Positions 14,301-20,300 of a stretch of DNA of 64,000 nucleotides are shown in pieces. The translations under genes and the position numbers were made by a program. Source of the DNA: the human T2T-CHM13v2.0 reference genome, Homo sapiens; NCBI RefSeq assembly GCF_009914755.1, contig NC_060929.1; one strand, given 5' to 3'. The first letter of the stretch is position 1. Every line of letters starts with the position of its first letter. A model generated the notes under the pieces. It did not search any database. It worked only from the letters and a program-made list of their open reading frames with translations, and was not told the origin of the DNA.

Positions 14301-17300
14301 TGTACATATACATTTTCATTTAGTCATTTAACACTTGGGTTGCTTTCACCTCTTGGCTGTTGTGAACAATGCTTCGATAAACATGGGTGCACAAATAATC
14401 ACTTCAAGGTCCTGCTTTCAATTCTTGTGTCTACTCCCAAATTTTGAAAGTGCTTAATGTCTTGACATTTCATTTGTAGTGATGATGATGATGATTTTGA
14501 TGATGAGGAAGCTGAAGAAAAAGCGCCAGTGAAGAAAGTGAGTAGATACAATGCTACAAGGTTGTTAAACTAACAATAGAAATGGTGATTTTTTAGTGCT
14601 ATTTGCTTGTTTTGTAGTTAAGGGAAGCTGGTGTGGGAGATCATCTCATACTGAAAATTAGTCCTGAGGAGGATTACAGAAAACTTAAGAGTGGGGAATG
14701 GTCTGTTTTCTTTATCCATGTGGCCCTCCACCCAGTTTGTTAGTCTTGTGTAACCTTTTGTCCAAGTGGTTGCTGCTTTTTCCTTCCTTTTTTTTTTTTT
14801 TTTGAGACGGAGTCTCAATGTCACCCGGGCTGGAGTACAGTGGCGCGATCTCAGCTCACTGCAACTTCTGCCTCCCGGGTTGAAGCGATTCTCCTGCCTC
14901 AGCCTCCTGAGTAGCTGGAATTACAGACTCATGCCACCACACCCAGCTAATTTTTGCATTTTTAGTAGACCACCATGTCGGCCAGGCTGGTCTCGAACTC
15001 CTGACCTCGTGATCCACCTGCCTCGGCCTCCCAAAGTCCTGGGATTACAGGCATGAGCCACCACGCCAAGCCTGTGGTTGCTGCTTGTCTTACATGGCTT
15101 GGACAGCTTTGTTTGCACTGTTGTTGGGGTCAGGGACAGTGATTAAGATAAATTTCTAATTGCAGTCTATACGAGATACTCCAGCCAAAAATGCACAAAA
15201 GTCAAATCAGAATGGAAAAGACTCAAAACCATCATCAACACCAAGATCAAAAGTAAGTGGCTACATTTACACGTGGGTCTCATTGATCTAGTTGGGGAAA
15301 AAGATTCTACTGTGGAAGAATCTAGTGTGTCTGAAATTTGATAGGCCTTTATAGAACCCCTGTAATTGCTGTTTAAAAGTTAAAATCAGCTTGCTGCAGC
15401 CAGGCTCAGTGGCTCACTCCTGTAATCCCAGCACTTTGGGAGGGAGGCCAAGGTGGGTGGGATCACCTGAGGTCAGGAGTTTGAGACTAGCCCGGCCAAC
15501 ATCGTGAAACCCTGTCTTTACTAAAAACACAAAAATTAGCCAGGCATGGTGGTATGTGCCTGTAATTCCACCTACTCAGGAGGTGGAGACAGGAGAATTG
15601 CTTGAACCTGGGAGGTGGAGTGCAGTGAGATTGCACCACTGCACTCCAGCTTGGGCAAAAGAGCGAGACTCCGCCTCCAAAAAAAAAAATCAGCTTGTTG
15701 TGTGTTGTAGGTACACACACACACACAAACATACTAAATGTAAGGTGGTGGGGCGGGGGGAGCCAATAGACTTTTTTGAAAGAGATGGACCCTCACTTTG
15801 TCACTCAGTCTGGGTTAGAGTTGCGTGATCTCGGCTTACTGCAACCTTCACTTCCCGGGTTCAAGCGATTCTCCTGCCTCAGCTTCCCAAGTAGCTGGGA
15901 CTACATGCGCGTGCCACCAGGCCCAGCGTATTTTTGTATTTTTGAGTAGAGATGGGGTTTCACTCTATATGTTGGCCAGGCTGGTCTCAAACCCCTGACT
16001 GCAGGTGATCCGCCCTCCTGGGCCTCTCAAAGTGTGTGAGCCACCACGCCTGGCCTGAATTTTTTGTGATTGTGAAGTCAATAGTTGTTTCCTGTAAGGA
16101 ATCTTTGTTGAAAGGTATGTCTGCATAGAGTAGAAGTTCTCAACCTTGGCTGCATGTTAGCTTGAAGTAGAACATTTGGGCCTAGACAGGGTGTATTGAT
16201 CTCATTCCTGACCCTACCCACTTCCCTGCAGAAAATGGAATTTAAAGGAAAAAAAGTTTAAAGGAACCCCAGTACTTGTGCTCTACTTATGGAGATTGTC
16301 ATAAAAATGGTCTGGGGTGGGCGCCAGGCATCAGACTACAGTGACTTTCTTGCTTTATTCTTAGGGATTTTCTGATTTCCTTTTTTTTTTTTTTTTAACC
16401 TGATGAAATAGTTTATTTACAATTTAAACGAATAAATTTCATATTCTACAACACATATAATCTATTGACTAAATGTAACTAATGATGAACCTCCATACAA
16501 ACAACCCCACTAAAAAGTGGGCAAAGGACATAAACAGACACTTTTCAAAAGACATACAAGTGGCCAAAAAGCATATGAAAAACAGCTCAATATCACTGAT
16601 TAGAGAAATGCAAATCGAAACCACAATGAGATACCATCTCACACCAGTCAGAATAGCTATTATTAAAAACTCAAAAAACAACAGCTGCTGGCAAGGTTGC
16701 AGAAAAAAGGGAATGCTTACACACTCTTGGTGGGAGTGTAAATTAGTTCAACCATTGTGGAAAGCAGAGTGGCGATTCCTCAAAGAGCTAAAAACAGAAC
16801 TACCATTTGACCCAGCAATCCCATTACATTCCCAAAGGAATATAAATCATTCTACCATAAAGATACATGCACACAAATATTCACTGCAGCACTATTCACA
16901 ATAGCAAAGACATGGAATCAACCTAATACCTGATATGGTCTGGCTTTGTGTCCCCACCCACATCTCATCTCAAATTGTAATCCCCACGTGTTGGAAGAGG
17001 GGCCTGGTGGGAGGTAATTGGATCATGGGGTAGATTTCCCTCTTGCTGTTCTGTTGATAGTGAATTCTCATGAGATCTGGTTGTTTGAAAGTGTGTAGCA
17101 CCTCCCCCTTTGTGCTCTCTCTCTTCTGCTGCCATGTAAGATGTGCCTTGCTTCCCCTTTGCCTTCTGCCATGATTGTAAATTTCCTGTGGCCTCCTAGC
17201 CATGCTTCCTATACAGCCTACAGCACTGTAAGTCAATTAAACCTCTTTTCTTCATAAATTACCCAATCTCAGGTAGTTCTTTTTTTTTTTTTTCATTTTA

Positions 17301-20300
17301 TTTATTTATTTATTTATTTTTTATTTTTATTTTTTTTTAAATTTATTTTTTTATTGATAATTCTTGGGTGTTTCTCACAGAGGGGGATTTGGCAGGGTCA
17401 TGGGACAATAGTGGAGGGAAGGTCAGCAGATAAACAAGTGAACAAAGGTCTCTGGTTTTCCTAGGCAGAGGACCCTGCGGCCTTCCGCAGTGTTTGTGTA
17501 CCTGATTACTTGAGATTAGGGATTGGTGATGACTCTTAACGAGCATGCTGCCTTCAAGCATCTGTTTAACAAAGCACATCTTGCACCGCCCTTAATCCAT
17601 TTAACCCTGAGTGGACACAGCACATGTTTCAGAGAGCACAGGGTTGGGGGTAAGGTCACAGATCAACAGGATCCCAAGGCAGAGGAATTTTTCTTAGTGC
17701 AGAACAAAATGAAAAGTCTCCCATGTCTACTTCTTTCTACACAGACACGGCAACCATCCGATTTCTCAATCTTTTCCCCACCTTTCCTGCCTTTCTATTC
17801 CACAAAGCTGCCATCGTCATCCTGGCCCGTTCTCAATGAGCTGTTGGGCACACCTCCCAGACGGGGTGGTGGCCGGGCAGAGGGGCTCCTCACTTCCCAG
17901 TAGGGGCGGCTGGGCAGAGGCGCCCCTCACCTCCCGGACGGGGCGGCTGGCCGGGCAGGGGGGCTGACCCCCCCCACCTCCCTCCCGGACGGGGCGGCTG
18001 GCCAGGCGGGGGGCTGACCCCCCCACCTCCCTCCCGGACAGGGCGGCCGGCCGGGCGGGGGGCTGACCCCCCCACCTCCCTCCCGGACGGGGCGGCTGGC
18101 CGGGCAGAGGGGCTCCTCACTTCCCAGTAGGGGCGGCCGGGCAGAGGCGCCCCTCACCTCCCAGACGGGGCGGCTGGCCGGGCGGAGGGCTGACCCCCCC
18201 ACCTCCCTCCCGGACGGGGCGGCTGGCCAGGCGGGGGGCTTACCCCCCCACCTCCCTCCCGGACGGGGCGGCTGGCCGGGTGGGGGGGCTGACCCCCCCA
18301 TCTCCCGGACGGGGTGGCTGGCCGGGCTGAGGGGCTCCTCACTTCCCAGTAGGGGCGGCCGGGCAGAGGCAACCCTCACCTCCCGGACGGGGCGGCTGGC
18401 CGGGCGGGGGGCTGACCCCCCCACCTCCCTCCCGGACGGCACGGCTGGCCAGGTGGGGGGCTGACCCCCCCACCTCCCTCCCGGATGGCACGGCTGGCCG
18501 GTCGGGGGGGCTGACCCCCCACCTCCCTCCCAGATAGGGCGGCTGGCCGGGCGGGGGGTTGACCCCCCCCCACCTCCCTCCCGGACGGGGTGGCTGCTGG
18601 GCGGAGATGCTCCTCACTTCCCAGATGGGGTGGCTGCCGGGCGGAGAGGCTCCTCACTTCTCAGACGGGGCAGCTGCCGGGCGGAGGGGCTCCTCACTTC
18701 TCAGACGGGGTGGTTGCCAGGCAGAGGGTCTCCTCACTTCTCAGACGGGGCGGCCAGGCAGAGACGCTCCTCACCTCCCAGACGGGGTCTCGGCCGGGCA
18801 GAGGCGCTCCTCACATCCCAGATGGGGCGGCGGGGCAGAGGCGCTCCCCACATCTCAGACGATGGGCGGCCGGGCAGAGACGCTCCTCACTTCCTAGATG
18901 TGATGGCGGCTGGGAAGAGGCGCTCCTCACTTCCTAGATGGGATGGCGGCCGGGCGGAGACGCTCCTCACTTTCCAGACTGGGCAGCCAGGCAGAGGGGC
19001 TCCTCACATTCCAGACGATGGGCGGCCAGGCAGAGACACTCCTCACTTCCCAGACGGGGTGGCGGCCGGGCAGAGGCTGCAATCTCGGCACTTTGGGAGG
19101 CCAAGGCAGGCGGCTGGGAGGTGTAGGTTGTAGTGAGCCGAGATCACGCCACTGCACTCCAGCCTGGGCACCATTGAGCACTGAGTGAACGAGACTCTGT
19201 CTGCCCTGATTTCCTTTTTTGAACTGACTTAGTACTGTGCATAAAAGCAAACTCCCAAGTTACTCTTTTTTTTTTTATTTAAAGAGATGGGTGGCCTACT
19301 CTTGCCCAGGTTGAAGTACAGTGGTATGATCATAGCTCACTACAGCCTCCAGCTGCTGGGCTTAAGCAATCCTCCTGCCTTAGCCTCCTGAGTAGCTGGG
19401 ATTACAGGCATGCACCACCATGCCTAGCTAATCATCTTATTCCTTCCTTAAAGGAAAGATTTTAAGAACAAAATTATATGGCGTGAATTTATTGATGATA
19501 ATTCCAGTTGTATAATTAGCTTTATAAGGGAGTTTTGTGAGAATATTTGAGGAAATCCAGATAGAATGGGTTTTAATTAGGAATTGTATTTATTCTTATG
19601 ACCTTTTGGAAATTCATTTCTTTTTCAGGGACAAGAATCCTTCAAGAAACAGGAAAAAACTCCTAAAACACCAAAAGGACCTAGTTCTGTAGAAGACATT
19701 AAAGCAAAAATGCAAGCAAGTATAGAAAAAGTGAGTAAAGTTATCTTAAAAAAACTTTGTCTCCCCCCTCAAATTGCACGTGTCTGGTTTGCATAGACTT
19801 GAATGTTTCTTGTTTTTTTGTTTGTTTTGGTTTAATATACTTGCCTGGTTCGTGGTATGAATTTTTTCAAAAATTTCTTATAAAACATTTATAATCGTGT
19901 CTGTGGTGATTTTTGCATATGCAAAATTAAATATGCCTTATTTTCCATTATGCAAGGAACGTAGTGCACTGGTTGCAAGATAACATTCTGACCTTCCATG
20001 TTAAAATAGATCAGTGAAAACCCTTTGCCTATTCTGGTTGTAAGATATGCTAGAGAACCAACAGAGGGCGTATGAGACTTCATTAAAATTACAAACAGCT
20101 GGAAAAGTAGATGCTGGCTGTTGCTTGGTATTATAGTTAATATTCATGATTGACCCTAGTCAGAAGTGATTTTCAGCAGATTGAGACATTTCTCTTTGCC
20201 CTTTACACCAAGTTGTCACCAGTTAATACATGTAGTAATAGCTAGATTTCGTGAATGACTAATAGGCTTAAATCTAGTTTCCTTTTGTCTTAAATAATGG

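What the first reader, a model, noticed from the sequence alone, without database searches (positions are those of the whole stretch)
16372..19220. NPM1 intron 8: one SVA insertion carrying an ~880-bp 3' transduction (L1 plus MST LTR from another locus)
Seen: the sequence at the SVA 5' end, CTGATTTCCTTTTTT (19206-19220), does not recur beside the SVA's own poly(A) (~17280). It recurs about 900 bp further away, at 16372-16386. That copy merges into a second T-run (16381-16396) with a minus-strand AATAAA 15 nt inside it (16412-16417). The junction TTTT/GA resembles the L1 endonuclease consensus TTTT/AA. Established: SVA transcripts can read through their weak poly(A) signal and mobilise downstream DNA by L1-mediated TPRT. 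Inference: 16397-17280 (unique spacer, L1 piece, MST LTR cut at the SVA tail) is foreign DNA copied from a source SVA that sits inside an MST LTR, itself inside an L1. It therefore barcodes the parent element. Repeat annotation would show three unrelated repeats and hide this. I cannot tell whether the event is already catalogued.
Basis: partly seen in the sequence, partly recalled or inferred. Interest (0 to 1): 0.8.

Follow-up and report, generated by a model that had tools for sequence, protein, structure and literature searches.

The report
SVA insertion with chr2-derived 3' transduction
A truncated SVA jumping element in NPM1 intron 8 carried along about 884 bases copied from chromosome 2, an ordinary and well-known kind of event, though its parent element is no longer present at the chromosome 2 site in this genome.

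Summary
CTGATTTCCTTTTTT occurs exactly at 16372-16386 and 19206-19220. It brackets a minus-strand, 5'-truncated SVA, about 884 bp of extra DNA and a second tail. The first minus-strand AATAAA after the SVA tail lies 15 nt before that second tail.

Window 16395-17282 has one other copy in the genome, chr2:201,284,337-201,285,224. The two differ by 5 substitutions in 888 bp and no indels. The 104-bp spacer is otherwise unique. At chr2 the LTR sits inside an L1 that resumes after it, as predicted.

One prediction failed. Chr2 has no SVA: the LTR runs on uninterrupted, and no SVA lies from about 16 kb below to 24 kb above the site. So the parent is absent from this assembly, either lost or polymorphic. 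I found no sibling carrying the same barcode.

This is a textbook SVA 3' transduction. Published work already describes transduction origins that lack a source element (PMC12593883). I could not find this event in the catalogues I could open. Interest is low.

The parts
16372..16386 (.). Left copy of the 15-bp target-site duplication CTGATTTCCTTTTTT. It lies next to the terminal tail.
   Evidence: Exact match to 19206-19220.
16387..16396 (-). Terminal poly(A) tail of the whole retrocopy, read as T on the + strand. It is 8-10 nt beyond the duplication. The last two T could instead be templated from chr2.
   Evidence: The chr2 alignment starts at 16395.
16412..16417 (-). AATAAA polyadenylation signal used by the read-through transcript.
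   Evidence: It is the first AATAAA/ATTAAA on the minus strand after the SVA tail region, 15 nt before the terminal tail. It is also present at chr2.
16397..16496 (-). Transduced unique chr2 flank (spacer).
   Evidence: Window 16397-16500 (104 bp) has only two copies in the genome, this one and chr2:201,284,339-201,284,442 at 99%.
16497..16926 (-). Transduced L1 fragment. It is L1-sense on the + strand, so antisense to the SVA transcript.
   Evidence: 38 of 40 scored genome hits cover only this part, at 85-88% identity. The + strand translation of 16479-16901 matches LINE-1 ORF2p residues 1064-1176 of 1275, E 4.9e-53.
16927..17282 (-). It is the first ~356 bp of a 382-bp LTR, cut where the source SVA's tail would have abutted it.
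   Evidence: Dispersed repeat: 12,073 first-look candidates, best unrelated copy 87%. At chr2 the LTR is L009 5870-6251 and continues 26 bp past the breakpoint.
17283..17355 (-). Internal SVA tail. It is long and patterned with A/TAAA repeats, and SVA's own AATAAA signals lie at its start.
17356..17852 (-). SINE-R module of the SVA.
   Evidence: 99% identical over all 497 bp to 39 other genome copies. 3-4 mismatches to each of the 11 fetched.
17853..19075 (-). SVA VNTR, G+C-rich units of 37-49 bp.
   Evidence: Tandem Repeats Finder; repeat families D1-D4.
19076..19205 (-). Remaining 3' part of the SVA Alu-like region, which is the 5' end of this truncated copy. One extra base (19205) lies between it and the duplication.
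   Evidence: Aligns at 98-100% to 6 of 11 relatives. The two with enough upstream sequence (L031, L033) carry roughly 300 nt more Alu-like sequence plus CCCTCT hexamers.
19206..19220 (.). Right copy of the 15-bp target-site duplication. It is followed by GA, so the nick site reads TTTTTT/GA.

Best explanation
This is one L1-mediated retrotransposition event (target-primed reverse transcription, TPRT). An SVA once sat in minus orientation inside an LTR, itself inside an old L1, at what is now T2T chr2:~201,285,225. Its transcript read through the SVA's own poly(A) signals and ran about 884 nt into the flank: the rest of the LTR 5' portion, the L1 fragment, then unique DNA. It was cleaved and polyadenylated 15-17 nt after the first canonical AATAAA in that flank. 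L1 endonuclease nicked NPM1 intron 8 at TTTTTT/GA. The T-run primed reverse transcription of the tail, the flank, the internal SVA tail, SINE-R, the VNTR and part of the Alu-like region, and then stopped early (5' truncation). Second-strand cleavage 15 bp away produced the duplication. The source SVA allele is not present in this assembly. It was either never fixed and lost, or it persists as a polymorphism that this genome lacks. Shown: the duplication, both tails, the signal, the unique chr2 origin, the direction chr2 to NPM1, the empty chr2 site and the 5' truncation. Inferred: that an SVA ever sat at chr2, and the read-through itself.
For: (1) An exact 15-bp duplication encloses the SVA plus the extra DNA, and none encloses the SVA alone. 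(2) The extra DNA ends in its own tail, 15 nt after the first minus-strand AATAAA downstream of the SVA tail. (3) Window 16395-17282 equals chr2 L009 5338-6225 at 99.437% of 888 bp, with 5 substitutions and no indels. It is the only alignment between window 15001-20500 and that 10-kb locus. (4) The 104-bp spacer has 2 of 2 genome copies at these two loci. (5) At chr2 the homology stops exactly at the poly(A) site on one side. On the other side the LTR runs 26 bp further and the L1 resumes colinearly (L009 5440-5869 and 6252-~6670 against uninterrupted L1 copies). So chr2 is the original. (6) The chr2 breakpoint reads TTCTTT/AT, an L1-endonuclease-like site. [CT]TTTA occupies 0.47% of positions in the 40 kb around it. 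(7) The internal tail is long and patterned, whereas 11 of 11 closest SVA relatives have short, mostly pure A-runs. That fits a tail copied from genomic DNA. (8) The substitutions split evenly: 2 derived in the NPM1 copy, 2 at chr2, 1 unpolarised. That is expected for two copies diverging since one event. (9) Published work treats the same pattern as a transduction whose source was lost or is rare (PMC12593883, passages read).
Against: No SVA is present at the chr2 site or anywhere in chr2:201,269,000-201,308,999. The only hit is a 57-bp Alu-like match. So the parent is not observed. No second offspring with the same barcode exists in this genome, and none of the 11 closest SINE-R relatives shares this copy's 3 private differences. 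There is therefore no independent trace of the source lineage. The T-rich chr2 breakpoint would also be favoured by a microhomology-guided template switch onto a poly(A) tail, so point 6 is weaker than the site frequency suggests. No other human or ape genome could be examined.
Confidence: 0.88

Rival explanations
1. Template-switch chimera. L1 reverse transcriptase started on a polyadenylated minus-strand transcript of the chr2 locus that had no SVA in it. It copied about 884 nt, then jumped onto the 3' end of an unrelated SVA RNA and continued. In this reading no SVA ever sat at chr2.
For: The chr2 site is empty in this assembly. There is no sibling or other trace of a chr2 source. The T-rich cDNA end at the junction could pair with a poly(A) tail. 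Chimeric retrocopies made by template switching are described in the literature (recalled, not read here).
Against: It needs an independent transcript that happens to end at the first AATAAA downstream of the breakpoint, which is just what read-through predicts. The internal tail is long and patterned, unlike a fresh RNA tail and unlike the tails of 11 of 11 relatives. SVA 3' transductions are common, and missing sources are documented: 16% of transduction-bearing polymorphic SVAs had no source found (PMC12593883).
Confidence: 0.06
2. Two separate insertions. An SVA-less retrocopy of the chr2 transcript landed in NPM1 first. An SVA later inserted exactly at its 5' edge.
For: None specific. It would also leave the outer duplication and the terminal tail.
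Against: No duplication flanks the SVA alone. The SVA tail abuts the chr2 DNA exactly at the end of homology, and the SVA 5' end abuts the outer duplication to within one base. That would require a second hit at one precise position with no duplication of its own.
Confidence: 0.02
3. The L1 and LTR are local old repeats of NPM1 intron 8. The SVA inserted into them, and a later deletion or DNA-level duplication explains the rest.
For: Repeat masking alone shows three adjacent repeats (hub annotation: masked 16502-17810 and 17814-19223).
Against: The segment is 99.4% identical to chr2, while unrelated copies of the same L1 and LTR are 85-88%. It includes a chr2-unique spacer. It ends at a poly(A) site with an added tail. 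The remainders of the LTR and L1 are at chr2, not beyond the SVA in NPM1.
Confidence: 0.01

Closest known systems
SVA 3' transductions in the human reference (catalogued by Xing et al. 2006, PNAS, recalled and not held here; and by Hoyt et al., T2T repeat paper, preprint passages read, which reports 55 highest-confidence SVA 3' events in CHM13)
   Same: Read-through of the SVA poly(A) signal, a downstream AATAAA, a second tail, and a duplication enclosing the SVA plus its flank. The event is interchromosomal.
   Different: Here the origin locus has no SVA in the same assembly. A catalogue that requires a parent element beside the origin may therefore have left it out or ranked it low. I could not open either catalogue's tables.
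Transduction-bearing SVAs whose origin lacks a source element (PMC12593883, Mob DNA 2025; passages read), such as the chr13-derived transduction of the CKS1BP group
   Same: The transduced DNA maps to one locus that carries no SVA. [quoted passage not shown]
   Different: Those are mostly non-reference polymorphic insertions, often with several offspring. This one is a singleton in the assembly, 5'-truncated, and probably a few million years old.
L1 3' transduction (Moran 1999; Goodier 2000; Pickeral 2000; recalled)
   Same: The same mechanism and the same hallmarks.
   Different: The mobilised element is the non-autonomous SVA, using L1 proteins in trans.
Chimeric retrocopies formed by reverse-transcriptase template switching (Buzdin and colleagues; recalled)
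   Same: Two unrelated RNA-derived parts in one orientation, inside one duplication, with one terminal tail.
   Different: Those usually join a small RNA to an L1, Alu or mRNA 3' part. Here the 3' part begins at an endonuclease-like site and ends at the first downstream AATAAA, as read-through predicts.

Membership tests
SVA retrotransposon | SINE-R module followed by AATAAA and a poly(A) tail | tested here: met
   Window 17356-17852 is 99% identical over 497 bp to 39 other genome copies. AATAAA signals and the tail lie at 17283-17355.
SVA retrotransposon | G+C-rich VNTR between the Alu-like region and SINE-R | tested here: met
   Arrays of 37-, 40- and 49-bp units across 17853-19075.
SVA retrotransposon | Alu-like region and 5' (CCCTCT)n hexamer | tested here: not met
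   Only the last ~130 nt of the Alu-like region is present, and there is no hexamer. Relatives L031 and L033 carry both upstream of the same point. This is 5' truncation, which is usual for L1-mediated copies and does not exclude membership.
L1-mediated (TPRT) insertion | Target-site duplication of about 7-20 bp, a terminal poly(A), and a T-rich nick site resembling TTTT/AA | tested here: met
   An exact 15-bp duplication, a terminal T-run at 16381-16396, and a nick context of TTTTTT/GA. The consensus TTTT/AA is recalled.
3' transduction | Extra non-element DNA between the element's own tail and a second tail, all inside one duplication | tested here: met
3' transduction | A poly(A) signal 10-30 nt upstream of the second tail | tested here: met
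   AATAAA at 16412-16417, 15 nt from the tail. It is the first such hexamer after the SVA tail.
3' transduction | The extra DNA maps to a single other locus, where it continues on the element-proximal side and stops at the poly(A) site | tested here: met
   chr2:201,284,337-201,285,224 at 99.4%.
3' transduction | A source element directly upstream of the origin sequence | tested here: not met
   No SVA in chr2:201,269,000-201,308,999 of this assembly. Published practice still classes such cases as transductions with a lost or rare source (PMC12593883). Only one genome was tested, so a source in other haplotypes is not excluded.
3' transduction | The source element's own target-site duplication is recognisable at the start of the transduced DNA | not testable with these tools
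   This needs the source allele's 5' flank copy, and none is available.

The most novel reading that the evidence does not exclude
No SVA ever sat at the chr2 locus. The NPM1 element would then be a chimeric retrocopy, made when L1 reverse transcriptase switched from a polyadenylated antisense transcript of an L1/LTR region on chr2 onto the tail of an SVA RNA. That would be an SVA-containing template-switch chimera that mimics a 3' transduction. Some 'orphan-source' SVA transductions in catalogues could then be the same thing.
Probability: 0.06. Interest if true: 0.45.

Novelty: new member of a known kind. Interest (0 to 1): 0.18.

Why it matters
It matters little beyond bookkeeping. The result shows that repeat annotation splits one 2.85-kb insertion in NPM1 intron 8 into three unrelated repeats. 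It also shows that about 884 bp of that intron is a copy of chr2 DNA, which can mislead read mapping and repeat dating at either locus.

The barcode records an SVA source on chr2 that this genome no longer carries. This adds one more case to the known class of short-lived or unfixed source elements. I saw no effect on NPM1: the element is antisense and intronic, and no annotated exon overlaps it (hub annotation).

Tried and rejected
- **Siblings.** I looked for other offspring with the same barcode, using the LTR part, the last 100 bp next to the SVA tail, and the unique spacer. Only the NPM1 and chr2 copies reach 99-100%; the next best are 87% and 93%.
- **Parent or sibling by SINE-R.** 39 other copies are 99% identical. 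None of the 11 fetched shares this copy's three private differences.
- **Subfamily.** I tried to use the CASP8 SVA_E named in PMC12593883 as an exemplar. No SINE-R match turned up in the 20 kb upstream of the CASP8 caspase exon in this assembly. No consensus library is on hand, so the subfamily is undetermined.
- **Catalogues.** Xing 2006 (PMC1693794) is not held. The supplement of PMC9311842 is unreadable here. Supplements of the bioRxiv T2T repeat paper are closed.
- **Supplement searches.** I searched for NPM1, BZW1 and coordinate prefixes in PMC12593883 (2 files), PMC12350158 (3 files, one cut when stored), PMC6191304 (1 file) and PMC10681720 (1 file). Nothing relevant came back.
- **Caveat on those searches.** The GRCh38/hg19 prefixes came from recalled gene coordinates. 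They would miss numbers written with commas.
- **Full-text searches.** SVA + NPM1 + transduction gave 116 papers, of which I saw 15 in the listing, none relevant. NPM1 + 'SVA retrotransposon' + intron gave 1 review, seen in the listing only.
- **Pfam.** The open 141-aa L1 stretch gave no family. The PDB sequence search then identified it as L1 ORF2p.
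Full report
**Observation**

The stretch 16200-19400 was read directly. CTGATTTCCTTTTTT occurs exactly at 16372-16386 and 19206-19220. With up to two mismatches the 64-kb window holds 4 matches against 0.44 expected. 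Only these two are exact, and none is near 17280.

In the repeat scan of 16000-19600 the pair is family D10. No other repeat brackets the SVA on its own.

The left copy merges into a run of 16 T at 16381-16396. A minus-strand AATAAA lies at 16412-16417.

**Anatomy, read on the minus strand**

- **Right duplication copy and SVA 5' end.** After the right duplication copy and one extra base (19205) comes the last ~130 nt of an SVA Alu-like region (19204-19076).
- **VNTR.** It spans 19075-17853, with 37-, 40- and 49-bp units.
- **SINE-R.** It spans 17852-17356 and is 99% identical over all 497 bp to 39 other genome copies.
- **Internal tail.** A long tail patterned with A and TAAA lies at 17355-17283.
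- **5' truncation.** Of the 11 closest relatives fetched, 6 aligned to the 5' end of this copy. The two with enough upstream sequence (L031, L033) carry roughly 300 nt more Alu-like sequence and CCCTCT hexamers ahead of the point where this copy begins. So this copy is 5'-truncated.
- **Extra DNA after the internal tail.** About 884 nt follow that are not SVA:
- An LTR fragment at 17282-16927. It is a dispersed repeat whose best unrelated copy is 87% identical.
  - An L1 fragment at 16926-16497. Its + strand translation matches LINE-1 ORF2p residues 1064-1176 of 1275, E 4.9e-53. A Pfam scan of the same stretch gave nothing.
  - A 100-nt unique spacer at 16496-16397.
- **Second tail and left duplication copy.** A second tail and the left duplication copy close the element.

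**Origin of the extra DNA**

I searched the window's own genome with 16397-17280. Of 23,207 first-look candidates, 40 were scored. Two covered the whole query: the window itself and chr2:201,284,339-201,285,222 at 99%. The other 38 covered only the L1 part, at 85-88%.

BLAST of window 15001-20500 against the 10-kb chr2 locus (L009) gave one alignment. Window 16395-17282 matches L009 5338-6225 at 99.437% of 888 bp. The difference is 5 substitutions and no indels.

The 104-bp spacer has exactly two copies in the genome, these two.

At chr2 the homology stops on one side at the poly(A) site, 15-17 nt after the same AATAAA. On the other side the LTR simply continues for 26 more bases to its end. 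The L1 then resumes colinearly with uninterrupted L1 copies: L009 5440-5869, LTR 5870-6251, L1 again from 6252.

Chr2 is therefore the original and NPM1 the copy.

**The prediction that failed**

There is no SVA at chr2. The site is an uninterrupted, pre-insertion-type sequence. The NPM1 SVA body finds only a 57-bp Alu-like match anywhere in chr2:201,269,000-201,308,999. The barcode thus points to an empty site in this assembly.

I found no sibling insertion carrying any part of the barcode. The LTR part, and the 100 bp next to the SVA tail, each hit only these two loci at 99-100%; the next best are 87% and 93%.

None of the 11 closest SINE-R relatives shares this copy's three private differences.

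**Mechanism**

The best reading is a classical SVA 3' transduction from a chr2 source allele that is absent here.

Points in favour:
- The AATAAA that was used is the first canonical hexamer on the minus strand after the SVA tail region. Read-through predicts exactly this.
- The NPM1 nick site is TTTTTT/GA. The inferred chr2 insertion site is TTCTTT/AT, and [CT]TTTA occupies 0.47% of positions in the surrounding 40 kb.
- The internal tail is long and patterned, whereas 11 of 11 relatives have short, mostly pure A-runs. That fits a tail copied from genomic DNA rather than freshly added to an RNA.
- Polarising the 5 substitutions with 6 unrelated LTR copies and 6 L1 copies puts two changes on the NPM1 copy (16679, 17125) and two on chr2 (17117, 17234). 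One CpG site (16429) is undecided.

Points against:
- The parent is not seen, and only one genome could be examined.
- The T-rich breakpoint would also suit a microhomology-guided template switch onto a poly(A) tail, so the nick-site argument is soft.

I give the transduction 0.88 and the template-switch chimera 0.06. Two-step insertion and a local origin get 0.02 and 0.01. Both are contradicted by the lack of a duplication around the SVA alone and by the chr2-unique spacer.

**Age**

Five differences in 884 bp is 0.57% pairwise. With recalled human mutation rates of 0.5-1.0e-9 per site per year, that is roughly 3-6 million years. The Poisson range is wide, about 1-13 million years.

The SINE-R has 3 private differences in 497 bp, two of them at CpG sites, which agrees. 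I cannot say whether the insertion is human-specific or whether it is fixed.

The SVA subfamily is undetermined. No consensus library is available, and an attempt to use the CASP8 SVA_E as an exemplar found no SVA in the stretch examined.

**Comparison with what is known**

SVA 3' transduction is long established.
- The T2T repeat preprint reports 55 highest-confidence SVA 3' events in CHM13 (passages read).
- PMC10681720 reports 748 3' transductions among 7,554 polymorphic SVA insertions (passages).
- PMC12593883 found sources for 84% of transduction-bearing SVAs. [quoted passage not shown] It gives a chr13 example of exactly this kind (passages).

The present case is therefore a new instance of a known kind, not a new kind.

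**Is it already catalogued?**

I could not establish this.
- Xing et al. 2006 is not held.
- The bioRxiv supplements are closed, and one supplement is too large to read.
- Searches of four other papers' held supplements for NPM1, BZW1 and coordinate prefixes found nothing relevant. Those prefixes rest on recalled GRCh38 coordinates.
- Full-text searches for SVA with NPM1 found nothing on this element.

**Verdict**

The finding is sound and neatly reasoned, but ordinary. No effect on NPM1 is indicated, since the element is intronic and antisense and overlaps no annotated exon.

Noticed in passing
L029 (G000:C16:28976403-28979899) and L030 (G000:C15:86693944-86697440), 3' ends of their SVAs: Two of the 11 closest SVA relatives show a first A-run, then 30-75 nt of non-SVA sequence containing AATAAA-like signals, then a second A-run. 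These look like short 3' transductions of their own.
   Followed up: no
window 19262-19400: A T-run followed by an antisense Alu begins about 45 bp beyond the right duplication copy. The SVA therefore landed just beside an older Alu tail.
   Followed up: no
window 19205: One extra base lies between the right duplication copy and the first SVA base that aligns to relatives. It could be an untemplated nucleotide or a one-base ambiguity at the 5' junction.
   Followed up: partly
L037-L038 (G000:C2:201745500-201765499): No SINE-R match in the 20 kb upstream of the CASP8 caspase-domain exon. PMC12593883 says GRCh38 carries a polymorphic SVA_E in CASP8 intron 8. Either this assembly lacks it or it lies outside the stretch fetched. 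The intron was not mapped.
   Followed up: partly
window 16479-16904 (+): The transduced L1 fragment keeps a 141-codon stop-free stretch matching ORF2p residues 1064-1176. This is a remnant, with no sign of being a gene.
   Followed up: yes
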